Below, piece by piece: positions 1 to 52,354 of a DNA stretch of 55,595 nt. The DNA comes from Prorocentrum cordatum (lineage: Eukaryota): contig CAUYUJ010000150.1 of NCBI GenBank assembly GCA_963575745.1, forward strand, positions 62,001 through 117,595. The letters are read 5' to 3'. The position numbers and the translations under genes are program-made. The notes beneath the pieces were generated by a model. The model had not been told where the DNA came from and made no database searches. It was given only the letters and a program-made list of their open reading frames with translations. Numbering within the stretch: position 1 is the first letter of the stretch; each line of letters starts with the position of its first letter.

Positions 1-175
1 GGAATGGGCGGACTGGAGTCCGTATTCGTAGGTATTATGAAGCCGGAGGGGTTTCCCGTTTCCTGTTTCCCGTTTCCCGCCGCCCCCCCCCCCCCCCATG
101 GGGCCTCCAGCTAAGGTCCGTACAAGAGGGTAGGGACAGCAAGGTAGAATGGGGCCTCCAGGTAACGTCCTTACC

Positions 176-5615
<5,440 letters not shown>

Positions 5616-17775: not shown

Positions 17776-18545
17776 ATTCCCTACCTAGGCTCTGCCTAGA
17801 AGGGTTCTTACTCGGCGTGCTTAAAGGGCCGGGCAGTGCAACCCGCCCCGGGCGGTTCCCCCAGCATTCGCCCCGCGGTTCCCCCAGTTGCGCCCCCTTG
17901 GCTTAGCAGTGTTTATCTCATCTTAGCTAAGCCTATTTCATCTTAGCTTAGCTTAGCTTCATCTTAGCTCAGGTTTATTCCCTACCTAGGCTCTGCCTAG
18001 AAGCGTTCTTACCTTGCGTGTTTAAAGGGCGGGGCAGTGGAACCCGCCCCGAGCGGTTCCCCCGGCATCCCCTGGGAGCGGTTCCCCCATTCCTTCGGGG
18101 GCGTTAGCTTTAGCTTTAGCTTGAGTATTAGCTTTAGCTTTAGCTTCAGCTTAGCTGTAGCTTAGCTTTAGCTTAGCTGTAGCCTAGCTGGAGCTTTGCT
18201 CTTGCCTAGCTTTAGCTTAGCTTTAGCTTAGCTTTAGCTTCAGCTTAGATTTAGCTTAGCTTTAGCTCGGATTTTTGCTTAGCTTTAGCTTAGCTTTCGC
18301 TCAGTTTTAGCTTAGCTTTAGCTTAGATTTAGCTTAGCTTTAGCTTAGCTCCAGCTTAGCTTTAGCTTAGCTGCAGCTTAGCTTTAGCTTAGCCTTAGCT
18401 AAGCTTTAGCTAAGCTTTAGCTTCGCTTCAGCTTATATTCAGCTTTGCTTTAGCTTAGTTTTAGCTTAGCGTTAGCTTAGCTTTAGCTTAACTTTAGCTT
18501 AACTTTAACTAAGCTTTAACTGAGCTTTAGCTTAGCTTTACCTTT
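17776..18545. repeat. Two tandem copies (period 201) of a ~130-bp head, each followed by a (TTAGC/TTTAGC)n tract
   Basis: attccctacctaggctctgcctagaag...aacccgcccc..gcggttcccc occurs at 17776 and 17977. TTAGC-type tracts lie at ~17900-17970 and ~18104-18545. Confidence 0.9.
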
Positions 18546-19399
18546 ACTACGAATGCTGCTTTCCTAGGGGCTCTAACTCCTAGGTAAGGTAGGTCTGGGA
18601 TAATTTGTATTTAAACACGTGTGTGTATATATATACATGTATATGTATATGTGTGTGTGTGTATGTGTGCGCGACCCCTCCCGGCTGTCGTTAATGTTAC
18701 ATCAGTCCTTGAGCTCCTCATGCGTGCCATTGCTGATGATCCGCATTTTTTTCGTCCGCGCCGGCTCGCTTATCTTTCCGAACCGTCATTTCTCTGTTGT
18801 TTTCGCGCTGGAATCTCAGCAGAATCAGCTTGATTTGGGATCTGCGTAATTCTACATCTCAAGGATTCCCAATAATAGTTGAATTTGAATCAGCTGTAGA
18901 TTGTAATTGTGTCCCATTGAGAAATTGTTCGGGATCGGTTGGATCTGGGATCTGCTCAATTCTGAATAGGTTCGAATTCTACTACAGTTGGAATCCAATC
19001 GGGATCAGCTGTATCTGGGGTTCGGCCACGCCGACTTCGACCTTGATTAGATTTCAGCAGGAATCCATTCGGACACAGCCGTATCTAGGATCTGCCCCAT
19101 TCGGGATATATTCTACTTCGAGTCCACTAGGGATCATTGGAATCATATGGAACTGGGATTCGCAGAGCGGCTATGCCGCGTTTATCGTGGCAGCTTCCCT
19201 TGAAGCCCTGGACGCGCCTTTAATGACACGCTGCTGGCCGAAGAGAGGCTCCAGAAACAGCCGCGGCGTCATATGCCTTCTTAGAGCCCTCTTCGACCTA
19301 AAAATCGAGAGTCCCAGAAATTCCCCCCACCCCCCGCCAAAGGAGTACCGACCGAAGGTTTAGACGGACTTGGATCCGATGTTGTGTTTGTTTTGTTTT

Positions 19400-20580
19400 G
19401 GGGGGTTCCGACGTTCCAGGGCTGCCCAAGACGCCCCCCAAACCGCCCCAAGACGGCGCAAGTCGCCCCGAACACGCCCCCACGAAGGGCCAAGAGGGCC
19501 CCGAAACGGCCCACGAGGCGCCCAAAATGGCCCAAGAGAGCCCCAAGACGGCCCTCGAGACCGGCAGCAGGCCCCCAACAAACCCCCAAATGCACCCGAA
19601 AGTCCCAGAAAACGTCCCGAAAGGCTTCTAAACTGCCCCCAAGAGGCCCCAGGAGGCGTCCTGAAAGGCCCCACCAGTAGCTCGAACCTCGAAGCGCACG
19701 AAGGATCGCGCACCATAGCCGCTCCCCCGCTCATGAACCGAATCGAAGCGCCAATTAGTACGGCGACGGTCAGAAAGTCAATTCGTGTGTGTGTGTGTGT
19801 GATTATATATAATATAGAATATATTATAACATAGTATACTATAATATAATATAATATAGTATAAACTAATATACTATAATATAGTATGATACCATATAAC
19901 ATAACATAACATAATGTAATATACTATGATATATTATAGTCGAGTATAGTATAATATCATATAATATAACACAACATATTATAATACAATATAATATACC
20001 ATAATATAATATAACATATTAGAATATCATATACCATAATATACAACAACATAGTATAGCATAATATGATATGATGTAATACAATATAATATAATATATA
20101 GTATAATATAATATAAAGGAATATTATATAATATAGTATACTATAATATAGTATAATATAGTATATTATACTAGAATATACTATAATATATTGTAATATG
20201 TTATAATACAATACAACCCGTTACACTATAACATAATGTAATATAATATAGTATAGTATAATATAACATAATATAATACAATATCGTATAATATCATTTA
20301 ATATACTATAATATGCCAATATACAATATAACATAATATAATATAAATATATATAATAATATTATAATATAATATAATATAATATAATATAATATATATA
20401 ACCATACTATATAATATAGTATGGTATAGTGTAATAGATTATAATAGAATATAATATAATATAACACAATATAATAACACATAATATTATAATATAATAA
20501 TAATATAATATAAATATAATATTATATAATATATTATAATATATATAATATATAATATAGTATAATATAATATAATATAC

Positions 20581-20617
<37 letters not shown>

Positions 20618-21260
20618 AATAAATACATATATCCCTTGGGGGCAGGCCCCGGGCCCACAAACAGGTGCCCCGACCCCCCATGGCAGGACGGGGCGGCCGG
20701 GGAGGTCGAAAATAATCCAGGATGGCCTCCAGAGGCTCCCCAACACGGCCCAAACGGGTTCCGAGTCGCCCAAAAACCGTTCTTGGACGCCCAAGATAGG
20801 CCCAAGACGGCCCGAGAGGTCCCCCCAACGCACTCCACGACGCCTCAAGACGCCTTCCCAGAGCGCTCCAAGAGGCCGAACTCGGCAATTTTACGCAGGG
20901 TTTGGACAGATTTTGGCCTTCCAGCCTTTTCGGCTGCCCGACGTTCCAAGACGGCTCAATAGGCCCCCGAAAGCGCCCCAAGACGGCCCGAGAGGGCCCC
21001 CAGACGGCCCCAGAGGCGCCCAAGACAGCCCAAGAGGGGGGCCCAAGACGGCCCCAAGATGCGCCCAAAAGGGGGACCACGACTCTAAAATTCGACCCTT
21101 CCGCCTGAAGAGTGCCCCAGGAGGCCCCAAGACCTCCCAGGATACCCCCGAGAGGCACCCCGGAGACCCAAACAAGGCCTCAAGAGGTCACAAAACAGCC
21201 CCGAGGAGGCCCCACAACGATCCCAAAACGGTTACCGAGGAGCTGCGACGCCTGCCCTCA
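19400..21260. repeat. Degenerate ccccaagacggcc-type interspersed repeat (19400-19680 and 20700-21260) flanking an extremely AT-rich (TATAA)n/(TA)n tract (19800-20630)
   Basis: Repeated cccaagacggc / cccaagag / ccgacgttcca motifs occur in both arms; the AT microsatellite is directly visible. Confidence 0.85.
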
Positions 21261-21429
21261 TGACACTTCAAATCGGCTGCCTTCACGACGTCCCCGACAG
21301 GCCAACCACGAGATCCAAGCCAACACCCATGAGGCCTCTGACCCACCACCCAGGGCACGGTGGCGGGAGCAGGGACAACACTTTTGCACAGCACGTTCCG
21401 GCGGGAGCCTTCCGGAACACGCTGCAGGA

Positions 21430-21572
21430 GGAGGAAGATCAGGAGGAGAGAGAGAGAGAGAGAGAAAGAGAAAGAGAAGGTTGGAGTGGAAGGAGGAGGA
21501 GGGGGGCGAGAAGGAGGAGAGGTGGAGGAGGAGGAGGAGGAGGAAGAAGAGGAGCAGGAGGAGGCGGACGGG

Positions 21573-21627
<55 letters not shown>

Positions 21628-21737
21628 CATGCATGCATGCATGCATACATGCATGCATGCATGCATGCTTACATACATACATACATACATACGTACACAC
21701 ATACACAAAGATACGCATTTATAGTTATACACATTGC

Positions 21738-21770
<33 letters not shown>
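21430..21770. repeat. Compound microsatellite (GA)n, (GGA)n, (TA)n, (CATG)n, (TACA)n
   Basis: Directly visible. Confidence 0.9.
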
Positions 21771-21773
<3 letters not shown>

Positions 21774-22430
21774 CCGTGCACGAGGCCCGGGCCCCCGGTG
21801 CTCGGGGCCACTGGGGGGCAGTATAGTGAACCTGTTGGGTGGGCTGGGTTGTAAGGTCTTTGAAATGTAGTTGTGAGATAGTTGTAAGGTAGCTGCAACA
21901 TAGTTGCAAGTCTGTTAAGCGGTTGTAAGTTCAGGTGTCCCACGTAGCTATATGAGCAAGCCGCATAACATTTGCAGCAGTGGGCCAGCATTCGTCTTAC
22001 CCTATCTTGACTTAGGCCGAGTTGCAATTTCACGCAGCGATATTTTGTTGATGGCTGAACTAGGATTTGCCCAATGTTAACGGTAGAATTACACTTCACA
22101 ATTTTTTGTATTCAGATGGGGCCCGCATTGCGTGTTTCTGATTTTCAAACGTTGCCCACGGGGCAATTACGAATTGAATTTCTCACTTGCGTGAAGACGC
22201 ATCCGTCGCTTCTTTGTGTGCCTAGTGGCAACTGCACGCTCGACGAGCGACACCGCGATCAAATGTGGTCCGCGTTTGCAGCAATTGCATTATCCATACT
22301 GTGTCGCAATTCATTCTGTCGTTCATCATGCACGCATTCGTCGCAGCGCGTGGCATTATTCCGGGTCGCGCCACATGGTATATCAAGAAGAATGTTGCTG
22401 TGTCAGCATTGGGACTTGCAGTGACGATGT

Positions 22431-36892: not shown

Positions 36893-36914
36893 TCTGAGCC
36901 AAAATGGCAACGGA
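36893..36914 (-). other. Dinoflagellate spliced-leader relic (TCCGTTGCCATTTTGGCTCAGA)
   Basis: 19 of the first 20 nt match DinoSL DCCGTAGCCATTTTGGCTCAAG. A gccATGg start lies about 100 nt downstream at 36791. Confidence 0.85.
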
Positions 36915-38634: not shown

Positions 38635-41600
38635 TCACGAGGGCCGCGACTTCTTCAGCGCCCAACCATCGAACTCGGAGAGCGCCATCTGCCGCTTGCC
38701 AGGCGGCGGCGGAGGCGCTGCGCCGCCGCTGTTGAAAACGTTCACCGTCACCCCAGCCGCCGCCGCCGGGACCGTCACGCTGACAAGGAGGTGCGGGCCC
38801 TGCACCTTGCCACTCCAGCTCCAAGCATCGTGGCGCCGGTAGAAGCTGACAGCCATGTCGGGCGGCAACTGGTTCTCGCGCAGACTCTCGCCGCCGAGGC
38901 CACTAGCGGTGCCCCACACCGTCCTTACCTTTACCTCGTCGAGCGGCGCCTCGGACACGTCGGAGGCTCCGTCCTTGATGTCTGGTGGCTGCTCGGCTGC
39001 TGAGGCAGAGCTGGCGGCTGCTCGGCTGGTGGCTGCTGGCTGGTGGCGCCCTGCTGGTGGCTGCTCGGCTGGTGAGCTGGTGGCTGCTCGGCTGGTAAAC
39101 TGGTGGCTGCTGAGCTGGTGGCTGCTCGGCTGCTCTGCTCGTGGCTGCTGAGCTGGTGGCTGCTCGGCTGCTGGGCTGGCGCCCGCACTGACCCTTTTGG
39201 GAAGCTGCCACTCCGCCCACTCGTACATCCCCATGATTCGCATCAACGGGCAGAGGGCCCTGCCCACGGACGACACCGCCATGCTGTTGCCAACAGCAGC
39301 GTGCACGGCGCCAGGCGGCAGGGTCGAGAGGAGGCTGTCGGGCCTGAAGCCCATGGCGGAGGCCTTCTCTCCCGCCGTGAGGTACCTCCCAGCCCCTGCT
39401 ACTCTGCCTGGAGCGCTGCCTACCACCCATAAGTACTCGTTCCGTGTTGTTAGACACGGAAGAGCGCCAGGCACCAAGATCGGGCCGTAGGTCTTCTTGG
39501 GATCGCGGGTGAGGTCCGCTACTGCAAGCTCGCACCCCGTCTTGTTCTTCAGTTCTGTGAAGAGCTCGTTGTAGGCCTGCGCAGGCCAAGTGTCCATTTC
39601 AACAATCAGAAAACTTCCTCCATGATCCCCCATCTCCGCCTCCCTCCTCTTCCTCGTCCCCCTCCTTCCTTATTTATGTATCCGCTCCACTTCCCGCCTC
39701 CGACCGCCTCCTCCTATGTCATCTTCCATCCGCTTTGCATCCAAGCTCCACTCCCCCCCCCTCCACATCCTAACCACCTACTGGCGCGCCTCGACGTTGG
39801 CGAGAAGGCCCGGCGCGGTTGGCAGCGGACCCGCCGCCAAGTCGCCCTTCACCTCCAGGATGTCAACCAAGCTGACTGGATCCTCAGGGCGCAACGGCCT
39901 CAGCCACGAGCCCTCGCGCTGCAGAACGGACGATGCCTCTGGAGCGCAGGAGGCCCTCTCCAAGATACTCTTGCGGATGCCAACGATGAAGACCCGGCTC
40001 CTGTGGCACAGCACGCAGTCCCCGATGGCGTCCACTTGGTGCCAGTTGACCTCGAAGTCCTCGCTCGGAAAGCAAGCGCAGGGAACGAGAGCAGGGGGGG
40101 ATGACGAGGAAGGGGGTGACCCCTCGGCGTTTTGGCGGGCCTTTGCACCACCCCCAAGGGGGGCAGGCAATGGCCGAGGAAAGGATGGAAACCCTGCAGG
40201 GCGCCACAGGCCTCAAAACGGAGGTGGAGAAAAACCTCACAACACTGGGCACATAATGTCCGACTCCCTTTCGGTCCGGCAACTTCTCAGAGAGCCAGGG
40301 TAAAAGCTCGGAGGTCAAGAATGAGGCCTTGCCGTGCTGGCGCCTCGCGATGCCCTGGACGTTCTCCAGGAGGAACCAGCGCAGGCGGTTGCCCGCCAGC
40401 CACTCCAAGAGCTCTTTCATCTTGCAATACACCTACGGCTTAAAGCAAACAAAAAAGGAGGAGAGAAGAGAAAGGAGCGGAGGAAGGAAGACTTGCAGGG
40501 AAGGAAGAGGGGGGGAGGAGGAGAAGGAGGAGGGTGAGGAAGAGGGAGGGGGAGGAGAAGGAGGAGGGGGGAGAAGGAGGAGGAGGAGGAGGAGGAGGAG
40601 GAGGAGGAGGAGGAGGAAGGGCGCCCCCCATCATCAGCTACAAGGCCCAGGCAATGACAACAAGGCCCCGCCACCTCAGCCCCTCGACTCGAGACGTCCA
40701 AGTCGGTCGCCGTTGTCGCCATCCATCTGTCGCGCCCTCGTCCCTCGTCCCCTTGTCAACCCTCTCCCCCCTCCTCTCGTCATCCGTTCGATCCACCACG
40801 ACATCCTCGCACTCTGTCTCCTCTAGCTTGCTACTCCAAACGAGGCCCAATGACCCCCGCCGAGCCCGCGCGGGGCCCTCCAAGACCCAGCGGTATCAAA
40901 GCCCCCCCACAGACGACCTGACAATCCTCAAGGCCCCCCTCCCCCGGCAACAGAGCACCTGGGCTCTCTCGTCCTCCATGCCAGCCTTCTTGCCCAAGAA
41001 GCTCCAGGGCGGGCATGGGAACCCGCAGACGAAACCCTCGCTGGGGACGAAACCCGCGGGCCGCCCTGCCGGCCCCTCCACCAGGCCGTTCCTGATCCTC
41101 AAGTTCAGGATGTCGCCAGCGACCTGGCGGCGCGGAGGGAGGAGCCCCGCCCCAGCGGCCAGAGGGAGGATCAGGGGGAGAGGGGGATGAGAAGGAGGTC
41201 GAGGAGAAGGTGGCGGAGGAAGTGCAGGAGGAGAGGGTGGGCGATGATGAGGAGGAGGAGGAGGATAGAGTAAGGGGCGAGCGAGGGACGGAGGGATCTC
41301 CACTCCACCCCCTTCCCTCCCTTCCAACCTCCCTCCTAGGAACGTCATCGATCCATTATCCTCCTCCTCCTTGCCCGCCGTCCTCTGACCCGAGTGAGGC
41401 CTCATGAGGTGTCTCCAGGATCCTCATCCATGGCGTCTGCAGGATCCTCACCCATGCGGTCTTCAGGAGACAATTCGTGACTAGCGGTGTCGAGCTCACT
41501 GGGCTCATCGTCGAGGTCGGTCCAGCTGGGCGGGCTGGGCGGTCCAGGTGGCGGTAGCACGAACCGCGGCACGACGTAAAGTGGGACGCAGTCCCAGTTA

Positions 41601-44600
41601 AACACGGATTCCACGAGTTCTACCCAGCGCCCCTGAGATAAGTCGAAGCCCGCCATAATGATATCTCGAGCCGAGATCTCACATGCCTCGTTGATTGCGG
41701 AGCCCCACGCCCCCTGAGAGGACCGAGGAGGAGTGGAACGAGAGCCGAGCTCAGGGTTATCACCGAGGAGGATGGAGGAGAGGATCAAGGATACAGCACC
41801 ACAAACCGTAAGCTAATGCCACGCTCCAGGGTGATGACCGAATCGAATGTTGCCGGCGTGGCATGCCCCAAGGCGGACCTGGGGCCTCAAAAAAACTCTG
41901 CCTGGGAACAATCGACCTACTGCTCGACAGGCCCATCCCAAGGGGCCATCTCTCCGTCGACCTCCATTCCCAAGTTGCCGTCAACGCGGCGAGCCGAGAG
42001 GGGGGCAATGGGAAGCAAGGTTTCTGACAGAAGCGCGAGCGCAAATCCCTTCGACTGCTCGTCCGCATCATCGATAGTTCTACCAGCGATGCTCAGCAGC
42101 GCGCCTCCATCGAGGCGGAGCAATTGAATCTTAGCCCTTGCCATCGAGTAGGTATGTTTCTGCCCTATGTGCCTCTGGTCCCCCTGCGCTCGCCTTTCAG
42201 GAAATCGAAACTCGGCGGTGGACCCACCCACGATGGCATAACGGCTGTCGCCCATTGACGAAGGCTGGCTCTTGAGCTGTCGAGCGCCAGCACAAAGAGC
42301 ACGAACTGTATTAGGAGCTGGATACCCACTACCAGCTACAAGCGGCAACAATCGAAAACTGAAACCAGCGTCGAACAAAGGCCAGACGAGAGATAAGCAG
42401 AGCGTCAGGGCCACAAAGTGGAGGATAGAAGATGAGGCGGATCGAGCACGGTGAGAAGGGGAGACAGAAGGAGATGGAGAGGTCATTGCACGAGGAGGCA
42501 GCAGGATAGAAAGGGAGGCGCGCCAGCAGCAGCAGAAGGAGCATCTTGACAAGGAAAGGCTGGATGATGCGGAAAGGTCAGGCAAGCAGAGACGAGGGAA
42601 GAGGAGGGAAGGGCGAAGGAGGGAGAGAGGCTGGCCAGACGCGTAGGAGTAGAAGGGCAGGAGGAAGCGGGGGTGGAGGCGGAGGAACAGGAGGCGGAGA
42701 GAGGGACGGGAGTCATGATATCCTCATCGCCCCCCTCTGTACCCCTGCCCTCCTCATTGCATTCCCTTGCTCCCTCTGCCTTCCCTTCGTCGTCGTCCTC
42801 CTCCCCCATGGTATATCCTCCCTCTCTTCTTCTTCCTCCCCATCCTCCCCATCCCCTCTCTTTCTCTCTATCTCTCGCCACTCACCCTCCATCATACTGC
42901 GTCTCCCTCCTGATATCCACTCCTCGGCTGGATGGGGAGGGGGAGAGGAGACTGCTGAGCTGCGCGGGCCGCGGGCCCGTCGAGCGAGCGGGCGGCCTGG
43001 TGCGCGCCTCAATCACCGATCGCCGAGCTCCGCGAGCTTGTCCCACCAAGTCTCGTACGGCGAGCCCTTCACGGCGCTGTGCGCCTCCATGACGCTCGCC
43101 ACGCTCATGCGACAGGTGGACAATTCGCCCTGCCACCCCGCGCAGAACCCCCACCGCATGCCCTGGCACGGGACAGGCCGAAAAGTGAGGTACACGAAGC
43201 CGGCGGGCAAGACGGCCAACGAACCTTCGCGGATGACCATGGCGAAGTTGCCCTGCTCGCGCGCCAACTGAAGGAGCCCTGCACCAGGAAGGCTCTTCAA
43301 GAAGCCAACGGTCTCGGCCAGGGAGTGCTCCTGCTTCGCCTTGACGCCCACCACCACTTCTTCTCCGCCAGTGACGACCCTGACCTCGCTGAGGCCATAC
43401 GAGGAGGGGCCCGCAGAACAGTGCCCGGCTGGGATCGTATAGATTTGAACTCCGAAGATGTGCTTGTGGAGAGCCTGGTCCTTCGGCGTCACCGGCACGA
43501 AGGCGCTTCGGAAGATAGTCTGGCCATTCGCCTCGTCTTTCACCAACCCCCTCAGCATCATGAGGATTCCAGGCTGAGACACTGCCCCAAAGGCGGGCGC
43601 CGCGCCATCGCTCTCCCAGGACATCACCTTTTCCTTGCACCATTTGGCCAGCGGCTTCCAGTCAGCTGAGGAAAGCAGGGGACCCAGTGAGGCCTTGACG
43701 TCGATGAGGCAAGCGTTCTGGAAGTCGAGGTTGCACAACGAGTTCATCACTCCTACAGGTGCGTCGTGGATCGTAGCTTTTACCATCGTCAGCGCTGGGC
43801 GGTAGTCCTGCGTCTCGCCAATGTCCAGAATCTCTGCCCTCTCTCCAGCCTTGCGTTTCTTGGAAGAGGCACCGCCGCTGGCGGCCTTCGCGAGAAGAGA
43901 CCGACAATTCTGCAACATCTTCGCTGTCAAGACCTGGTGGCAACAATCTTTTTTCTGTTCGGCAGCGATCTTCTTGAAGGCCTCTTTCACACCAGCGACA
44001 GACAAGTCCCAAGCCGGCGAATCGATGTGAGCACAAAGCTTCGAGATTCTGGCTTTGACATTATTGATCTCATCCTGCGCGGCTGTGGAGAGGGCCTCAA
44101 GCTTGTCTTTGAAAGGTTTCCATGGCTCTCCATCTAAATCCGTCGCTGAAATCTTAGATTTCATGTATTCGAGCACGTTGATTCCTTCCGATACCTGGTT
44201 CTCCAAGGCGCTCACCAAGGAACTCTGAAGACGATCCGCCAGCTGCAAGGTACCGAGGCGGACTGTGACTGGATTCACCTTGGCCGCCGCAGCATCCTTG
44301 GCCAAATTTTTTGCCTCGATGTCCTCGAGCGCCTCCATGTGGGCCAAGACCTTCTCCTTCTCCGCCCTCGTAGTCTGATCCTCGATGAAGCTGCCGAGCG
44401 CGCCGTGAAGCTGAGGGGCACAGTCCAGCGTGCCTCTGTACACGCTCTCCAGGAAATCCTCAGGAACAGCAACGTGATCGCGATCCTCCCCTTGGCCGTG
44501 CGACGCCCTCTGGCTCTCCTGGACCGCCGTCAACGCAGCGCCAACGTTCGACGCCATGCTCTGCAAGGCCGTGTCCAGCTCCGTACCAGTGAGGCTCGAC

Positions 44601-47600
44601 GAGCTGCTCTTCGTCAATGACGCCGTCGTCCCCTTCGTCAGCACAGCGTCGTCGATCTCGCCCTGGTACTCCGCGATGAGGTACCCTCCTGGGCGCCGCG
44701 GGTCGGGCTTCACCGTGTACTCACGGCTCATGCACCGCCGACGGAACTCCAGCTGCTGGTCTTTCGGGTTGGTAAACCCCTCCAGCGCCAAGTCCCGCCT
44801 CACCAGGGTCCACGGCTCCCAGTGGGTGCGCTCCCGATGTTGATCCTCGACCTTGGTCTCCGTCGTCGTCACAAGCGTGAGCATCTCGTGCGCTTCCTCG
44901 GGAGGCATGGCAAAGCTGGAGGTGGAGGGGCAGGAACGGGAGGAGGGGGGAGGCGGGAGAAGGGGGAGGGGAGGAGGGAACGAGGGGAAGGGAGGACGGG
45001 GGGAGAGGAGGGGGGAGAGGAGAGGGAGGGAGAAGGGCGAGAGCAAGAGGAGAGGAGACAAGGCAAGAGAGAGGAGGACGCGGGGGAGTGAAAGGTGGGA
45101 AAGGGGGTGCCAGGTGAACGAGCTACGGTGAGGGTGAAAGGGGGTGCGGGGGTGCGGGGGCGCCAGGTGAACTACGACGTGAACGAGCTCAAGGTGGGAA
45201 AGGGGTGCCAGGCGCCCAGGAGTCGGGGGCAGCATAGTGGTGGTCGCTTTCCTCCTCCTCCTCCTTGTCCTGCCTCCTCCCTCGCCGGCCTCCTGCAGAT
45301 TCTACTCCTCCTCCTCCTCCTCCTCCTCCTCCCCCTCATCCTCTTCCTCCTGCTTGCGCCTTTCCCTCCTCCTCCTCCCCCTCACCCCTCGCGCTTCGCA
45401 TCCATCCTCATCCTCATCGTCCTCGCTAGCTTTTCCTTGTCATCCCCATCCCCCCTCTTCCCTCAGCCTCCCCTCACAACCTCATCATCCCATCTCCTCT
45501 TCCTCGCCCTCCTACTCCCTTTACAACGCCATCCGTTGTCCGGCACGGCTGTCTCCCGATGGTCGATGTACCACTGCTGCTGCTCCTTCGCGCTCTTCTC
45601 GGTCCACCAGGGCTTCAGCTGCTTGTTCCGCTTGAACCTGCGCAGCAACGTGCGGCTGTTCCCATAGCATTTCTCGCACAGATCGCGAGCGCATTTGCGA
45701 GAGTCGGCGTCCCGCACGCGCTCGTCCTCTGCGAGCTCCAGGCCGCACTTCTGGCACGTGAAGGCGCCGCTGCAGCTGCCTCCTGCGCCCTCGCCAACGG
45801 GCTCCACGCCATCGAAGTGGATGAACACAGGCGTCGCAGTCCCTCCAACTGGCGTCTTCGGTCCAGATGGAGGCTGAACTGGTGGCCCTTGATGCTGCTG
45901 AACTGGTGGCTGCTGAACTGGTGGCTGCTGATCTGGTGGCTGCTGATCTGGAAGCTGCTGAGGCTGAGGACCTGGTGGCTGCTGAACTGGTGGCTGCTGT
46001 GGCTGCTGAGCTGGCGGCTGCTGATCTGGTTGCTCGGCCGGTGGCTGCTGATCTGCGGGCTGATGACCTGGTTGCTGCTGATGATCTGGCGGCTGCTGAG
46101 CACGTGGCTGCTGATCTGGTGGCTGCCCGCCTGGTGGCTGCTGACCTGGTTGCTGCTGAACTGGTGGCTGCTGATCTGGCGTTTTCTGATTTGGTGGCTG
46201 CTGAACTGGTGGCTGCTGAGCTGGTGGCGGCTTCTGAGCTGGCGGCTGCTCGGCTGGCGGCTGCTCGGCTGGTGGCTGCTGTGGCTGCTGAACTGGTGGC
46301 TGCTCGGCCGGTGGCTGCTGATCTGCGAGCTGCTGACCTGGTTGCTGCTGAACTGGTGGCTGCTGATCTGGCGGCTGCTGACCTGATGGCTGCCCGCCTG
46401 GTGGCTGCTGACCAGGTGGCTGCTGAACTGGTGGCTGCTTGGCGGAGCTGGCGGCTGCTGAGCCGGTGGCTGCCGAGCACGGGGCTGCTGGCGACGCAGC
46501 GGCGGCCTAGTGGAAGCGCCCATCCTCCCTCTCCCCCCCGCGGAGGAGGAGTGGAGGAGGAGGCGGAGGAGAGGAGGAGGGAGGGAGGAGGGAGGGGGGA
46601 GGAGGAGGAGGAGAAGGAGGAGGAGGTGGAGGAGGAGGAAGAAGAGGAGGATGAGGAGGGGGCGGGGGCAGAAGGATCAGGAGGTGGAGGAGGAACAAGA
46701 GCAGGAGGAGGAGGAGGGGAACAATGCGAGCGCGAGAAGGGATGGGAATGGGAATGCAGGAGAAGGAAGATTCATCATCATTCTAGTGTTTCCCCTGGTG
46801 CCCTCCCCTCCTCATCCTCCGCCTCTTTCGGCTCTCCATCCTACTCCTCCTTCTCCTCCCCATTGTCCTCCTGCTCCTTATCCTGCTCCTCCTCCTCCTC
46901 CTCCCTGTCCTCCTCCTTCTCCTCCCCTCAAACCCTCTACTTCCTTCCTCTCCCCTTCTCCTCAAACCCGTGGCCTTCTTCTCGGCGTGCAACACCTTGA
47001 AGCACGACGAGATGCCCTGCCCGCTGGGCACGGGCGGCGGGGGCTTCTTGCCAGGAGCCATTCCACAGGCCGCCGCTCCGCCGCTCGTCACTGGGCGCCG
47101 CCGGGCGCCCGAAGCCAAAATGGCTGTGGACGGGTGGAGGGAGGAGCGGAGGAGGAGGGGCCCGCGCCCGCGCCCAGGACCCCTTTGACCAAATCAAACC
47201 AAGTGACCTGGGGCCAAGAGCGGAGACGGTGACCAGGGACCCCGAACATATTGGATGCAGCGAAGCCCTTGCCCACAAACCAGGCATGAACAGCTGAGCA
47301 AGGCCCCTCCCCCCTGCCCACTAACCAGGCATGAAACCTAGACGACGTATCAGCGCGAGCCAGGCCGCTGGAGGCAAAACGAGATCCCCCCACGTGCTGA
47401 TCCTGGCTGATCCCCACACACCCCTGCCTCCACCTCGCGCCGTCCAATTCGACGCCGTCCTGATTCCTGTCGTTCCTCTTCAGCTCCTCACTCTTAGCTA
47501 CCCCCTTCATCCATTCGTAGTCCTCCCTGAGGCCACCCCTGTGCGCCCGATCGGTTTATCCACCCGTCCTCCTTCTCCTGACCTCCTACTCGTCATCCTT

Positions 47601-48754
47601 CTCGAGGTCCCTCAACCTCCTGATGACCCTCCTCTTGCTGCTGCTCCTCCATCTCCTCCATCTGCTCCTCCTCCACCCTTCCTCCTCCCCCTGGTGCTCC
47701 CCCTCCAACGGCGCCTGCCGGCCGGGGCCGGCCTTCCCGTAGTGCAGGTGGCACTTCTTCGTCCCCATCGACGAGTGGAGCAAGTTGGCAGCCGGGCGCA
47801 GGTCGTCCTGGCTGGGGAGAGGATGGGGGGCGGAAAGAAGGGCGGCCAGGATGAGGTGGATGAACCAATACACAGACACGTACGCGATGCATTGCAGACA
47901 GAAGCCGCGGCGATTATAGGAGGGCCAGGAAAAGAGAAGGATGGGGCAAGGGCGAGGAGGGAGGTGGAGAAGGAGGGTGAAAAGAGGGGGAGACGGAGGA
48001 GGGCAGGATGCGGAGGAGGCCACGAATATTCTGGATACCGCAACAAACAGTCAGCAGGACCAAACGATCAACAGGAGGCTATACAGGAGCGTCAGCAAGA
48101 CAAGGCGCTTTGCATGGCAAGCGTCATTACGCGGGAAGCAGCTGAAGAAAACACAAGAAGAACGCTGTCCGAGATGTCGTACACGTTCACAGCGCACCAC
48201 GGCCACTGCGCCTCCAGCGCCGCCCTCTCAGGGGCGCCGATGCCTCCCCTGCCCGAGGTCGCGCGCGCACTGAGAGCCCACCTCGCTCTGACTCTGACTC
48301 TGCATTTTCAAAATCCACGGGTTCATTCCAGGATATCCGATCGAAACCGGGCCCGTTGGGCCCCCCCCAGGACAACGGATCGGGCCCTGAAAACAAAAGA
48401 AAAGCTGGATCATCACTACATTGTGAATCCGCCCGCCTCTGCATCGATACATGTGCGACGAACGCAGACAAGGGGCTACCAATGATGCATATATCGAGAG
48501 GTTGCTCGCGATTGAAAGCTGGGCTGCCTGTCTCCAAAGACCAGAATGCGTCGAGTAGAAGTGCGATTCCCACGAAAGCTTGCAACCTACGAACACAGCA
48601 CCCCCCCCGTCCAACCAGCACACAACAGCGTCACGCGCATGGGCGTGAGCGGGCGCCCGAAGTCGGGGTACACGGAGCGAGCAACCCAGGGGGCGTCCTT
48701 GCGGACGCAACAGTCTGGAAGAAGAACGGCGTCGGGCCCTCGGGCCAAGGGCAT
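38635..48754 (-). CDS. C5 cytosine-specific DNA methyltransferase, 7 exons: 48754-48616, 48243-48170, 47807-47733, 41123-40959, 40432-40277, 40059-39790, 39576-38635 (1821 nt, 606 aa)
   Basis: All six joins are in frame, with GT, GA, GC, GT, GA, GC donors and AG acceptors, from a gccgccATG start. The spliced protein has motif I RVTLLCAG|IGAPERA, II VNVYDIS|DD, III K|VAGDIL, IV GFPCPPWSFLG (catalytic PC), V DERAQ|V, VI WFLLENVQGI, VIII CHRSRVFIVG, a TRD-type PCLTT, IX RYLTAGEKASAMGF and X VGNSMAV, followed by a QQPP repeat and a short C-terminal extension. Confidence 0.88.
41402..42256 (-). CDS. Possible small spliced hypothetical gene inside DNMT intron 3
   Basis: Two protein-like minus-strand ORF segments, MGDSRYAIVGGSTAEFRFPE...GFALALLSETLLP and GAWGSAINEACEISARDIIMAGFDLSQGRWVELVESVFNWDCVPLYVVPRF plus an acidic tail. 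The splice junction was not resolved. Confidence 0.4.
43013..47061 (-). CDS. Nested ~978-aa protein, exons 47061-46975, 46506-45541, 44896-43013: Q/P repeat, CxxC-x23-CxxC-type zinc finger, helical middle region, degenerate JmjC/cupin-like C-terminus
   Basis: In-frame joins are AAG|GC..TAG|GCC and CCG|GA..GAG|GAA (the second is less certain). The protein has CQKC...CEKC, a 628-codon open last exon, and a C-terminal EVRVVTGGEEVVVGV...AMVIREGSLAVLPAGFVYLTF...GMRWGF that resembles the beta-strand pattern of a double-stranded beta-helix. Confidence 0.75.
45860..46480 (-). repeat. Coding minisatellite, ~15-bp unit cagcagccacca(gtt/gat/gcc) = QQPPx
   Basis: Directly visible. The same repeat family occurs at ~38985-39180 and ~51110-51315. 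Confidence 0.95.
47109..47130 (-). other. Degenerate spliced-leader relic (TCCACAGCCATTTTGGCTTCGG) about 50 nt upstream of the nested gene's ATG
   Basis: 17/22 identity to DinoSL with an exact 13-nt core AGCCATTTTGGCT, on the correct strand and in the expected position. Confidence 0.7.
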
Positions 48755-50867: not shown

Positions 50868-52354
50868 TCAATCCTCCGCGAAGATCTCCCGAAGCTCCTG
50901 CCTGAGCGAACAGTCGGCGACATCGCTGGGCGCTTCGTCAGCGGCTTGCGATGTCTCCGTGGGCGACGGCGGCAGCGCGGTCCAGCCCTCCGCGGTTTTG
51001 ACAACGGCAACGGGCCTGGGCAACGGCGGCGTCTTCGGGACCCCAGGCAAGCGGAACCTCGGCTCGTTGAACACATCATCACGCGGAGGCTGCGGAGACT
51101 TCGGCTGCGCAGCACGTGGCTGCTGATCTGGTGACTGCCCGCCTGTGGGCTGCTGACCTGGTTGCTGCTGAACTGGTGGCTGCTGATCTGGCGTGTCGGC
51201 TGGCGGCTGCTCGGCTGGTGGCTGCTGTGGCTGATGAACTGGTGGCTGCTCGGCCGGTGGCTGCTGATCTGCGAGCAGCTGACCTGGTTGCTGCTGAACT
51301 GGTGGCTGCTGAACCGTCGGCCCCTGCATTTCGGAGACGTCCTCGATTGTGAAGGGCGTGATGTCGAACGCAGGCGACGTACCCTCCGCGACCCTGGAGA
51401 CGCACACGAGCCGGCCACTCTTCGCGATTTTCCTAGGAGGGGAAACAGCATCGGGATTTGGATGGAACGCTTCCAACGCGGCCTCCGTGATCGCTGGCAA
51501 GGTGCCCGACCCCACGTCGACGACTTTGGAGTTCGCGATGGCGGTCGGCAGCGGCGACCTCGAGGCTCCAGGGGCGGATGAGTGCATCAACGAACTTCCT
51601 CTCATCCACCATCTCCTCCACCTCCTCCTCCTCCGCCTTCTCCCCCTTAGCCCATCCCCCCTCCTCGTACTACTAGCCCCTCCCCTCCTTCTCCTCATCC
51701 TCCTCGTCCTACTCCTCCTCCTCGTCCATCCAACTCCTCCTTCTCCTCCTCCTCATCCTGCTCATCCTCCTTGTCCTCGTCGTCCTCCTCCGCCTTCCCT
51801 CATCTTCCTGCTGCGATTGCACGCCCAACGTGGAAACGACCCAAAGACCCAAGGTGACCTGGTCGGGCTGCTCCGCGCCATCTTGCTGAATGACGGGCTA
51901 CCCTTCAGATCCCCCTGAGAGCAGGGCAGAGGCGCGGGGCGGAGGTCACCCGCGCTGTCGTCGCCCTGAGGGGCAGGCCATCGGTCGCGTGCTCAGCCAA
52001 CCCTGACCCTGCCCCCACCTCCCACCCCCACTGTCAAAGGAAGGACAGCGGGTGCGAGGGCAAAGCTGACCGAACACGGACCACCCCCAGGACAGTTACA
52101 ATGGGCCATCAACCTACATCCCCTTGCCCCTGCCCTTTGCCCTCCGTGGGATGCTCCTTCTTCCAGGGGCTCATGTCGCTCAACGCCTGGCTGTCCTCTT
52201 CGCCCTGGGTGTCGTGCAGCGGCGGCGGCGGGTAGCTGCCCGCGGCGACGTCCGAACCCGAAGGCGACGGCACCTCGGCGCGCAGACGCTTGTCCGCGGG
52301 CGACCTGCCGAGCTGGCCCAGCGCCGGGCGCTTGTCGCCAGAAGACGTGGACAT
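50868..52354 (-). CDS. Low-complexity hypothetical protein (~320 aa) with QQPP repeat; exons 52354-~52145, 51914-51859, 51558-50868
   Basis: ctcgccATG start (MSTSSGDKRPALG...). The join AG|GTcacc..AG|GTcgcc is in frame (SPT-R-SPLPTAIANSK). The first donor is uncertain. Confidence 0.6.

What the first reader, a model, noticed from the sequence alone, without database searches (positions are those of the whole stretch)
38635..48754. Hidden complete C5 DNA methyltransferase split over 10 kb, with its SAM-binding half separated from its catalytic half by a gene-filled 6.6-kb intron
Seen in sequence: seven minus-strand exons join in frame into 606 aa carrying motifs I-VI, VIII, IX and X in canonical order with intact PC, ENV and RxR residues. 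Motifs I-II (48754-47733) lie 6.6 kb from motif III onward (41123 down), and the join reads CHLHYGK|VAGDIL. Established: these motifs define C5-cytosine methyltransferases, and Symbiodiniaceae are known to have DNMT domains captured by retrotransposons. Inference: this copy is stand-alone and intron-rich, has no recognisable regulatory N-terminal, RT or SNF2 domain, has an atypical motif I (LCAGIG rather than FxGxG), and carries a QQPP-linked C-terminal extension. It may be a distinct DNMT lineage not tied to a retroelement.
Basis: partly seen in the sequence, partly recalled or inferred. Interest (0 to 1): 0.9.

Follow-up and report, generated by a model that had tools for sequence, protein, structure and literature searches.

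The report
Intact stand-alone dinoflagellate DNA methyltransferase gene
The seven pieces do join into one complete cytosine-5 DNA methyltransferase gene, but its 6.6-kb intron and 10-kb span are normal for this Prorocentrum-like dinoflagellate genome, so it is a real but fairly ordinary gene of a little-studied enzyme lineage.

Summary
A profile built only from 10 outside relatives aligns it over positions 7-382 of 400 (270 bits). The three upstream exons add 50 bits; none of 50 shuffles added any. They are the only motif I-II sequence in the window. PC, ENV, RxR and GN are intact.

The framing needs correcting.
- The genome is Prorocentrum cordatum-like, not Symbiodiniaceae.
- In that species the mean intron is 4.7 kb and the mean gene 24 kb. 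GC and GA donors and AGG acceptors are the rule (PMC10666404).
- Exon-rich, domain-only DNMT genes are already described in dinoflagellates (PMC5890265).

Intron 3 does hold an annotated intronless gene on the same strand. No reverse transcriptase, integrase or transposase was found in 105 long ORFs. The class is unresolved: it does not fit DNMT5/5c or a retrotransposon copy, and DNMT6 or "orphan" could not be tested. Splicing is inferred from homology only, because no RNA run was listed. Relatives carry C-terminal PCNA-box motifs, which hints at replication-coupled methylation. Verdict: a new member of a known kind, of modest interest.

The parts
48616..48754 (-). Exon 1: start ATG at 48754, N-terminal PxW element and the first half of motif I (ends ...LLCAG, phase 1). 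GT donor at 48615-48614.
   Evidence: Weak colinear family-profile hit to profile 7-35 at 48706-48608, E 0.34. In-frame codon log-odds +7.6 against -5.7 and -22.3 in the other frames. Alignment.
48164..48243 (-). Exon 2: second half of motif I (..IGAPERAA..) and motif II (VNVYDISDS). Acceptor AG|G, GT donor.
   Evidence: tblastn of P0014 residues 32-57 at 69% identity, E 1.7e-5. Family-profile hit to profile 32-60, E 9e-5.
47733..47807 (-). Exon 3: helix between motifs II and III, ending ...HYGK. Acceptor AG|G, GC donor at 47732-47731.
   Evidence: No hit on its own (score -1.6), but colinear and gap-free with P0014 in the joined model. In-frame codon log-odds +16.7.
41124..47732 (-). Intron 3, 6,609 bp, GC...AG|G. 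It contains the QQPP/zinc-ribbon ORF, the annotated intronless gene P0068 and several simple repeats.
   Evidence: No terminal inverted repeat beyond chance (41 of 200 shuffles).
40959..41123 (-). Exon 4: motif III (GDIL) and motif IV (GFPCPPWS). The catalytic Cys codon is 41015-41013.
   Evidence: Pfam PF00145 E 6.4e-5, 23 bits against a cutoff of 22. Family-profile hit E 7e-9. The P0057 alignment starts exactly at 41123.
40277..40432 (-). Exon 5: motifs V-VI, with ENV at 40366-40358. Acceptor AG|G, GA donor.
   Evidence: Family-profile hit E 7e-7. Three tblastn alignments (P0042, P0049, P0055) end exactly at 40277.
39790..40059 (-). Exon 6: motifs VII-VIII (CHRSR: RxR kept, Q replaced by C) and the start of the variable target-recognition region. 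GC donor.
   Evidence: Family-profile hit E 1e-4. The P0014 tblastn piece starts at 40059. The boundary was chosen by colinearity with P0014.
38638..39576 (-). Exon 7: target-recognition region, motif IX, motif X (GN at 39291-39286), minisatellite linker and C-terminal tail. Stop at 38637-38635.
   Evidence: Family-profile hit E 2e-29. phmmer found 67 relatives. The P0002 alignment starts at 39576.
38982..39174 (-). 15-bp minisatellite (about 13.5 copies, 13% indels) forming the AEQPP/SSHQ/AATS linker inside exon 7. The same repeat family occurs at 45894-46490.
   Evidence: Tandem Repeats Finder. This stretch has no coding GC3 pattern: 0.74/0.69/0.63.
38668..38691 (-). PIP-box-like motif Q-x-x-L-x-x-F-D, 10 residues before the C-terminus and followed by KK.R.
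   Evidence: Read. Canonical versions sit at the same place in relatives P0002, P0005 and P0062.
43013..44908 (-). Nested intronless gene of unknown function on the same strand. Annotated protein P0068 covers 44896-43016. Candidate ATGs at 44908 and 44884. It is preceded by about 200 nt of pyrimidine-rich sequence and AG sites.
   Evidence: 100% match to P0068, 92% to a Prorocentrum cordatum protein, 53% to P0070. Sequence read.
45463..46506 (-). Second open frame inside intron 3: 347 aa, a QQPP minisatellite plus a Cys-rich zinc-ribbon-like tail. Whether it is coding is unproven.
   Evidence: Pfam hits are all below threshold: Extensin_1 63.6 bits (cutoff 105), Zn_ribbon_2 E 0.014.

Best explanation
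This is one intact nuclear gene of a Prorocentrum cordatum-like dinoflagellate. It encodes a stand-alone C5-cytosine methyltransferase of about 608 aa.

Gene structure:
- It has seven exons over 10.1 kb, joined by ordinary dinoflagellate cis-splicing. Donors are GT x3, GC x2 and GA x1. The acceptor is AG|G in 6 of 6 introns.
- Intron 3 (6.6 kb) separates the SAM-binding exons (motifs I-II) from the catalytic exons (motifs III-X).
- That intron hosts at least one same-strand, intronless, separately annotated gene. This fits the unidirectional, polycistronically transcribed gene arrays of dinoflagellates.

The protein belongs to a small family of domain-only enzymes of about 380-470 aa. It would work as a classic PF00145 enzyme:
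- SAM is bound by the motif I-III lobe.
- The target cytosine is flipped out and attacked by the Cys of motif IV (PCPPW).
- The ENV glutamate and the motif VIII arginines assist catalysis.

Shown: exon content, colinearity with relatives, intact catalytic residues, coding-type codon bias in every exon, and no retroelement domain nearby.

Inferred: that the exons are actually spliced together, that the substrate is DNA, and that the C-terminal PIP-like motif tethers the enzyme to PCNA.
For: - Relatives: phmmer with exon 7 found 67. The full-length ones are 370-469 aa, and 13 of 16 tested match PF00145. P0014 matches over profile positions 6-312.
- Colinearity: P0014 maps in five ordered pieces, including 48244-48167 at 69% identity. 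A family profile built without the window aligns the joined model over residues 17-432 to profile 7-382 of 400, 270 bits, as a single domain. E1-3 contribute +50 bits; none of 50 shuffles exceeded 220.4.
- There is no other motif I-II candidate anywhere in the window.
- Coding signal: all seven exons are open. In-frame codon log-odds are positive in 7 of 7 exons and negative in the other two frames. GC3 is 0.86-0.87 in exons against 0.52-0.69 in introns.
- Splice sites match the species' published usage: GT 24.7%, GC 51.4%, GA 23.8%, AGG acceptor 79.7%, mean intron 4,709 bp (PMC10666404 Table 2, passages read).
- The PC, ENV, R.R and GN residues are present.
- A structure model of relative P0014 has pLDDT 86.7. 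Its listed top Foldseek matches are C5-methyltransferases or close kin (one is a C5-carboxymethyltransferase).
- No RT, integrase or transposase Pfam hit in 105 long ORFs of the window.
- The nested gene is the window's own annotated protein P0068.
Against: - No transcript evidence: no RNA run was listed, so no junction is observed.
- The protein collection holds the nested gene's model but returned no protein of 231-2000 aa containing exon 7. It also returned no window-encoded protein of 244-777 aa related to P0014. The gene may therefore be unannotated, or not supported by the annotators' transcripts.
- Pfam alone sees only the motif IV exon (1 of 14 ORFs; 0 of 3 upstream ORFs at E<=10).
- Exon 3 alone has no score and exon 1 alone is weak.
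- Motif VIII has C where Q is usual.
- A same-strand gene inside the intron, if cleaved and polyadenylated, would compete with splicing across it.
- The minisatellite in exon 7 shifts among three reading frames of the repeat and shows no coding bias.
Confidence: 0.65

Rival explanations
1. The gene is split and dead. A segment carrying other genes (P0068 and the QQPP ORF) was inserted or expanded between the two halves. Exons 1-3 and 4-7 are no longer joined into one mRNA, so the locus is a recent pseudogene or two non-functional fragments.
For: - A separately annotated same-strand gene with a close paralogue elsewhere (92% identity) lies between the halves.
- No window-encoded DNMT protein was returned.
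- No RNA evidence was available.
- Motif VIII has Q replaced by C.
Against: - The interruption falls exactly at a codon boundary, flanked by G|GC...AG|G.
- No residue is lost or gained relative to P0014.
- All seven exons are open, with coding codon bias and intact catalytic residues.
- 6.6 kb is only about 1.4 times the species' mean intron.
Confidence: 0.18
2. The gene is real, but the enzyme is an RNA (tRNA) methyltransferase of the DNMT2/DNMT6 kind, not a DNA methyltransferase.
For: - A domain-only architecture is what PMC12344493 (passages) reports for the RNA-associated DNMT2 and DNMT6.
- That paper says the substrate of orphan DNMTs cannot be predicted.
- The family profile hits S. pombe Dnmt2 at E 8e-23, well above DNMT1 (9e-10) and DNMT3A (6e-7).
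Against: - The best PDB sequence matches are bacterial DNA enzymes: M.HaeIII 1.4e-29 and M.HhaI 1.4e-26.
- C-terminal canonical PIP boxes in 3 of 68 relatives (0 of 2000 shuffles reach 3) point to the replication fork.
- No DNMT6 reference was available, so this rival was not properly tested.
Confidence: 0.15
3. It is a retrotransposon-borne DNMT of the SymbioLINE-Dnmt or SymbioDIRS-Dnmt3 kind, or a decayed copy of one.
For: Retrotransposon DNMTs are by far the most numerous DNMT copies in Symbiodinium (PMC5890265). The nearest relatives come from unnamed environmental assemblies of unknown context.
Against: - Those elements are intronless and sit next to an RT ORF. This gene has six introns.
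- No RVT, endonuclease, RNase H or integrase hit in 105 long ORFs of the 55.6-kb window.
Confidence: 0.03
4. The 6.6-kb separation is an assembly artefact, for example a mis-join between two tandem or dispersed copies.
For: The region is rich in simple repeats and minisatellites. 64.8% of genes in this species are dispersed duplicates (PMC10666404).
Against: The window has no N. The two halves complement each other exactly, with no overlap or loss.
Confidence: 0.04

Closest known systems
Exon-rich, domain-only DNMT genes of dinoflagellates (Dnmt5/Dnmt6/Dnmt2 paralogues of Symbiodinium; de Mendoza et al. 2018, PMC5890265, passages read)
   Same: A methyltransferase domain with no companion domain. 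Many short exons spread over about 8-11 kb. Head-to-tail orientation with neighbouring genes. No retroelement attached.
   Different: The species is Prorocentrum-like. The class is unresolved. This family has a short PxW N-terminus, a C/F-x-G-[IL]-[GD] motif I and, in several members, a C-terminal PIP box. None of these features appeared in the passages I read.
'Orphan' eukaryotic DNMTs (Mol Biol Evol 2025, PMC12344493, passages and supplementary table read)
   Same: A lineage-restricted clade without companion domains and with an uncertain substrate. Symbiodinium kawagutii is listed with 6 orphans.
   Different: That paper links many orphans to viral or LINE origin. Here the gene has six spliceosomal introns and host-like codon usage. 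Prorocentrum is not in the supplementary table I searched (0 occurrences).
Bacterial type II C5-methyltransferases M.HaeIII and M.HhaI (PDB 1dct, 10mh)
   Same: The best sequence-profile matches among solved structures: E 1.4e-29 and 1.4e-26 over motifs I-VIII. Same motif order, similar size and single-domain build.
   Different: No restriction partner and a eukaryotic gene structure. The Foldseek TM-score is only about 0.5. The target-recognition region is not alignable by sequence.
DNMT5 / dinoflagellate DNMT5c (Hoguin et al. 2023, PMC9998398)
   Same: DNMT5c is the only DNMT class that paper lists for the Prorocentrum minimum CCMP1329 transcriptome (supplementary data 2). Cryptococcus DNMT5 is the top Foldseek hit (2e-13), though barely ahead of M.HhaI and Dnmt2.
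   Different: That paper says DNMT5 has Ser in place of the motif IV Phe, and DNMT5c has an N-terminus of about 1000 aa. Here motif IV keeps Phe (GFPC) and the N-terminus is about 40 aa. DNMT5 is not among the 60 best PDB sequence hits shown.
DNMT1 (PCNA-binding maintenance enzyme)
   Same: It is a possible functional analogue only. DNMT1 binds PCNA through a PIP-type motif (established knowledge, recalled). This family carries PIP boxes at its C-terminus.
   Different: No RFD, CXXC or BAH domains. Weak sequence relation (E 9e-10, motifs IV-VIII only). The window's own motif is non-canonical.

Membership tests
C5-cytosine methyltransferase (Pfam PF00145) | Motif IV Pro-Cys catalytic dipeptide | tested here: met
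   GFPCPPWS in exon 4, Cys codon 41015-41013. Pfam PF00145 E 6.4e-5, 23 bits against a cutoff of 22.
C5-cytosine methyltransferase (Pfam PF00145) | Motif I SAM-binding loop (FxGxG) N-terminal to motif IV | tested here: met
   CAGIG spans E1/E2. It is homologous to P0014 residues 32-57 (69% identity), and those residues lie inside P0014's PF00145 alignment from profile position 6. Pfam alone does not detect the isolated exon. The Phe position is Cys, as in several relatives.
C5-cytosine methyltransferase (Pfam PF00145) | Motif VI ENV, motif VIII QxRxR, motif IX, motif X GN, in canonical order | tested here: met
   ENV at 40366-40358. Motif VIII reads CHRSR: both Arg are kept and Q is replaced by C. 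GN at 39291-39286. The order is I-X in the joined model.
C5-cytosine methyltransferase (Pfam PF00145) | Whole spliced protein passes the Pfam gathering score, with the alignment reaching exons 1-3 | not testable with these tools
   Joined sequences cannot be handed to the Pfam tool. The substitute was a family profile built from 10 relatives, which reaches model residue 17.
DNMT5 / DNMT5c | Ser replacing the motif IV Phe; SNF2 ATPase (5a/5b) or an N-terminal extension of about 1000 aa (5c), as described in PMC9998398 | tested here: not met
   Motif IV is GFPC here and GPPC or GFPC in relatives. The N-terminus before motif I is about 40 aa. No SNF2 hit.
Retrotransposon DNMT (SymbioLINE-Dnmt / SymbioDIRS-Dnmt3) | Intronless ORF inside an element with a reverse transcriptase | tested here: not met
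   Six introns. No RVT, endonuclease or integrase hit in 105 ORFs.
DNMT1 | RFD and BAH domains N-terminal to the catalytic domain | tested here: not met
   No such Pfam hits. The PDB profile match covers motifs IV-VIII only, E 9e-10.
DNMT3 | Clusters with DNMT3 catalytic domains; short target-recognition region; often PWWP/ADD | tested here: inconclusive
   Weak profile match to DNMT3A (E 6e-7). No PWWP or ADD hit. No tree could be built.
DNMT2 | tRNA methyltransferase clade with a conserved Cys-Phe-Thr element in the target-recognition region (recalled, not from a call) | tested here: inconclusive
   Profile match to S. pombe Dnmt2 at E 8e-23, weaker than to M.HaeIII and M.HhaI. The family has C-L-T-T at a similar place. 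No tree.
DNMT6 | Placement in the DNMT6 clade | not testable with these tools
   No solved structure and no reference sequence could be obtained. PMC9998398 supplementary data 2 lists no DNMT6 for P. minimum CCMP1329.
PCNA-interacting proteins (PIP box) | Q-x-x-[ILMV]-x-x-[FYW]-[FYW] (the strict pattern scanned here) near a terminus | tested here: not met
   The window has Q-M-A-L-S-E-F-D, so the second aromatic is missing (38691-38668). The strict motif is present in 3 of 68 relatives, 5-10 residues from the C-terminus. The shuffle mean was 0.08, and 0 of 2000 shuffles reached 3.

The most novel reading that the evidence does not exclude
This orphan, domain-only DNMT family may be tethered to the replication clamp through a C-terminal PIP box. 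It could then act as the replication-coupled (maintenance-type) CG methyltransferase of dinoflagellates, which lack DNMT1 yet keep most CGs methylated. A second possibility is that its expression is gated by competition between cis-splicing across intron 3 and 5' trans-splicing/3' cleavage of the same-strand gene nested in that intron.
Probability: 0.12. Interest if true: 0.75.

Novelty: new member of a known kind. Interest (0 to 1): 0.3.

Why it matters
Dinoflagellates methylate nearly all CG sites but have no DNMT1, and which enzyme copies the pattern at replication is an open question (PMC5890265, discussion passages). A complete, apparently unannotated, retroelement-free DNMT in a 4-Gb bloom-forming species adds a candidate, especially since relatives carry clamp-binding motifs. 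The locus also shows how homology across species can recover genes that annotation may miss in genomes with 5-kb introns and GC/GA splice donors. The gene architecture itself is not surprising for this genome.

Tried and rejected
- RNA evidence: the look-up of sequencing runs listed no RNA holder.
- Whole genome: not held.
- The search for homologous proteins with exon 7 at 'longer' lengths found nothing. With P0014 it found only P0014 itself and P0071.
- Metagenome loci:
  - P0014 gave 0 of 88 candidate stretches;
  - alignment A2 gave 0 of 55.
- Viral contigs: 2 loci at 31% identity over the N-terminal half only. I did not follow them up.
- Introner test: no terminal inverted repeats beyond chance in any of the 6 introns. 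Between 24 and 85 of 200 shuffles did as well.
- Relict spliced leader in front of the nested gene: none found. The single match in the window is at 36893-36913.
- C-terminal tail against P0003: not significant (E 0.13).
- Structure of the nested protein: pLDDT 37.9, unusable, so not searched. It had no PDB sequence hit. The Atlas call for it did not complete.
- Foldseek of the DNMT model does not separate DNMT5, M.HhaI, Dnmt2 and M.MpeI. All score 1e-13 to 1e-11 with TM about 0.5.
- Supplements searched for family-labelled sequences containing the motif IV peptide:
  - PMC5890265: none in 3 files; one file was too large to read;
  - PMC9998398: none in 12 of 23 files or in file 19; the other 10 files were not searched.
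- Earlier findings of this scan: nothing.
- A search for 'PIP box', DNMT, dinoflagellate and PCNA found 63 papers holding at least 3 of the 4 terms. None of the 8 listed mention dinoflagellates.

Full report
**What is there**

On the minus strand between 48754 and 38635, seven open segments carry C5-cytosine methyltransferase motifs in canonical order. Guided by outside relatives, I set these exons:

| Exon | Coordinates | Donor |
|---|---|---|
| E1 | 48754-48616 | GT |
| E2 | 48243-48164 | GT |
| E3 | 47807-47733 | GC |
| E4 | 41123-40959 | GT |
| E5 | 40432-40277 | GA |
| E6 | 40059-39790 | GC |
| E7 | 39576-38638 | stop at 38637-38635 |

- Together they give 1824 coding bases, or 608 codons, with no internal stop.
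- The acceptor is AG followed by G in 6 of 6 introns.
The critical join 47733^41123 is identical.

**Is the distant N-terminal half real?**

phmmer with the conserved part of exon 7 against 1.84 billion representatives gave 67 relatives. Five had E<=1e-10 and none E<=1e-30. The full-length ones are 370-469 aa. Of 16 tested, 13 match PF00145, and the three that do not are short C-terminal fragments. P0014 (444 aa) matches over profile positions 6-312, so that alignment includes motif I.

- tblastn of all 67 onto the window shows P0014 in five colinear pieces. Its residues 32-57 fall on 48244-48167 at 69% identity, E 1.7e-5. The rest falls on 41051-39220.
- A profile HMM of 10 relatives (window not included) was run over every six-frame ORF of 15 aa or more. 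It finds six colinear minus-strand hits in this gene. The only hits to profile positions 1-60 are at 48706-48608 (E 0.34) and 48247-48161 (E 9e-5). The eight other hits in the window have E 0.4-9.6.
- The joined model aligns as one domain: residues 17-432 to profile 7-382 of 400, 270 bits.
- Removing E1-3 drops the score to 220.5 bits. Fifty shuffles of those 98 residues gave a mean of 219.9 and a maximum of 220.4.
- On their own, E3 scores nothing and E1 is weak. Their support is colinearity and codon usage.
- In-frame codon log-odds are positive in 7 of 7 exons and negative in both other frames. GC3 is 0.87 in E1-3 and 0.86 in E4-6. In the one phase computed for each of the six introns it is 0.52-0.69.
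- Across the E3|E4 join, the model and P0014 align residue for residue without a gap.

Pfam itself sees only the motif IV exon (1 of 14 ORFs). It sees none of the 3 upstream ORFs at E<=10.

**Catalytic residues**

- Motif I reads C-A-G-I-G across E1/E2. The family consensus is PCxGLD, so the deviation from FxGxG is a family trait.
- Motif IV is GFPCPPWS and motif VI is ENV.
- Motif VIII is C-H-R-S-R: both arginines are kept and Q is replaced by C.
- Motif IX and the GN of motif X are present.
- A structure model of P0014 from 33 relatives has mean pLDDT 86.7 and pTM 0.85. Foldseek returns C5-methyltransferases and close kin throughout its listed top matches.

**Whose genome, and is the architecture unusual?**

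The 762-codon open frame inside intron 3 is identical to protein P0068, which the tool marks as encoded by the window itself. It is 92% identical to a protein that NCBI names from Prorocentrum cordatum, and 53% identical to P0070. Window GC of about 0.6 fits that species' 59.7%.

The species' genome paper (PMC10666404, passages including Table 2) reports:

| Feature | Value |
|---|---|
| Mean intron length | 4,709 bp |
| Mean gene length | 24,462 bp |
| Donor usage | GT 24.7%, GC 51.4%, GA 23.8% |
| AGG acceptors | 79.7% |
| Gene orientation | mostly unidirectional |

So a 6.6-kb intron, a 10-kb gene and GC/GA donors are what one expects here. The host is not Symbiodiniaceae.

**What sits in intron 3 (47732-41124)**

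- An intronless gene of unknown function lies on the same strand (P0068, 44896-43016). It has candidate ATGs at 44908 and 44884, behind about 200 nt of pyrimidine-rich sequence and AG sites.
- A 347-codon frame (46506-45463) is made of a QQPP minisatellite plus a Cys-rich tail. It has only sub-threshold Pfam hits.
- Several simple repeats are present.

The nested protein has no Pfam family above threshold, no PDB relative and no usable structure model (pLDDT 37.9). I found no relict spliced leader in front of it. None of the six introns has terminal inverted repeats of the introner type beyond chance.

Because dinoflagellate genes are co-transcribed and resolved by trans-splicing and polyadenylation (PMC10666404 passages), a same-strand nested gene is plausible. 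It would compete with splicing across it. That competition is my inference.

**Retroelement link**

Pfam on 105 further long ORFs of the window (each at least 130 aa, selected from 117 after dropping those already scanned) gave no reverse transcriptase, endonuclease, RNase H, integrase or transposase. The only hits were sub-threshold MINT_RAM7 x2, TCAD3 and Extensin_1. Together with six introns, this argues against a SymbioLINE or SymbioDIRS type copy (PMC5890265).

**Which DNMT class?**

| PDB match to the family profile | E-value |
|---|---|
| M.HaeIII | 1.4e-29 |
| M.HhaI | 1.4e-26 |
| S. pombe Dnmt2 | 8e-23 |
| DNMT1 | 9e-10 |
| DNMT3A | 6e-7 |

- DNMT5 is not among the 60 hits shown.
- By structure, DNMT5, M.HhaI, Dnmt2 and M.MpeI are indistinguishable: 1e-13 to 1e-11, with TM about 0.5.
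- PMC9998398 (passages) says DNMT5 has Ser for the motif IV Phe, and dinoflagellate DNMT5c has an N-terminus of about 1000 aa. Neither is true here.
- Its supplementary data 2 lists only DNMT5c for P. minimum CCMP1329, so this gene's class was not recorded there.
- DNMT6 and the published orphan clades (PMC12344493) could not be tested, because I had no reference sequences.
- I therefore file it as a PF00145 enzyme of an unresolved, probably orphan, dinoflagellate-type lineage.

**C-terminal extension**

After motif X comes a 15-bp minisatellite (38982-39174, about 13.5 copies, 13% indels). It is of the same family as the array at 45894-46490 and has no coding GC3 pattern. A tail with GC3 of 0.85 follows.

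The tail ends with Q-x-x-L-x-x-F-D, ten residues from the C-terminus, followed by basic residues. In the last 35 residues of the relatives, the strict PIP pattern Q-x-x-[ILMV]-x-x-[FYW]-[FYW] occurs in 3 of 68 (P0002, P0005, P0062). It sits 5-10 residues from the end. There is 1 occurrence in the 14,484 body residues. Shuffles gave a mean of 0.08, and 0 of 2000 reached 3. P0014 and P0003 have near-matches.

The relatives are kin, so this shows conservation, not independent events. Many are fragments, so 68 is a generous denominator. The window's own motif fails the strict pattern. The reading that the family is clamp-tethered is an inference. I found no paper combining these terms for dinoflagellates in the listing.

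**Verdict**

It overstates how unusual the split is and names the wrong host group. Exon-rich, domain-only DNMT genes in dinoflagellates are already in print (PMC5890265). What remains open is whether the exons are spliced, which class this is, whether the substrate is DNA, and whether the PIP-like tail is used.

Noticed in passing
window 36893-36913 (-): This is the only match in the window to the 21-nt dinoflagellate spliced leader (3 mismatches; 0 of 100 shuffles gave any match). It lies just upstream of a 216-aa ATG ORF (36791-36141, minus strand). It looks like a relict leader marking a retroposed gene downstream of the DNMT.
   Followed up: partly
window 43013-44908 (-): Intronless gene of unknown function nested in DNMT intron 3. 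It has a 92%-identical paralogue in Prorocentrum cordatum and a 53% relative in another assembly. It has no Pfam or PDB match and no usable structure model.
   Followed up: partly
window 45894-46490, 38982-39174 and about 51119-51264: One 15-bp minisatellite family (encoding QQPP/AEQPP on the minus strand) recurs in three places: the DNMT C-terminal linker, the ORF inside intron 3, and an ORF at 50871-51752. The blastn match 46329-46473 against 51119-51264 is 75% identical.
   Followed up: partly
window 45463-45860 (-): A Cys-rich, zinc-ribbon-like tail (Pfam Zn_ribbon_2 E 0.014, below threshold) follows the QQPP array. Whether it is an exon of some gene is unknown.
   Followed up: no
window 1-5300: Repeated ORF units on the plus strand (512-1828, 2546-3832 and others) have similar N-termini and sub-threshold MINT_RAM7 hits. 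They are flanked by long poly-N/poly-Q/poly-L codon runs. This looks like a tandem array of a low-complexity gene or repeat.
   Followed up: no
window 18000-22000: GC content drops to 0.42-0.47 in a window that is otherwise about 0.6 GC, with TA/TG-type simple repeats in the ORF translations.
   Followed up: no
L001 5575-5943; L002 7574-7942: Two IMG/VR viral contigs encode a methyltransferase 31% identical to residues 29-177 of relative P0014 (E 7e-6).
   Followed up: no
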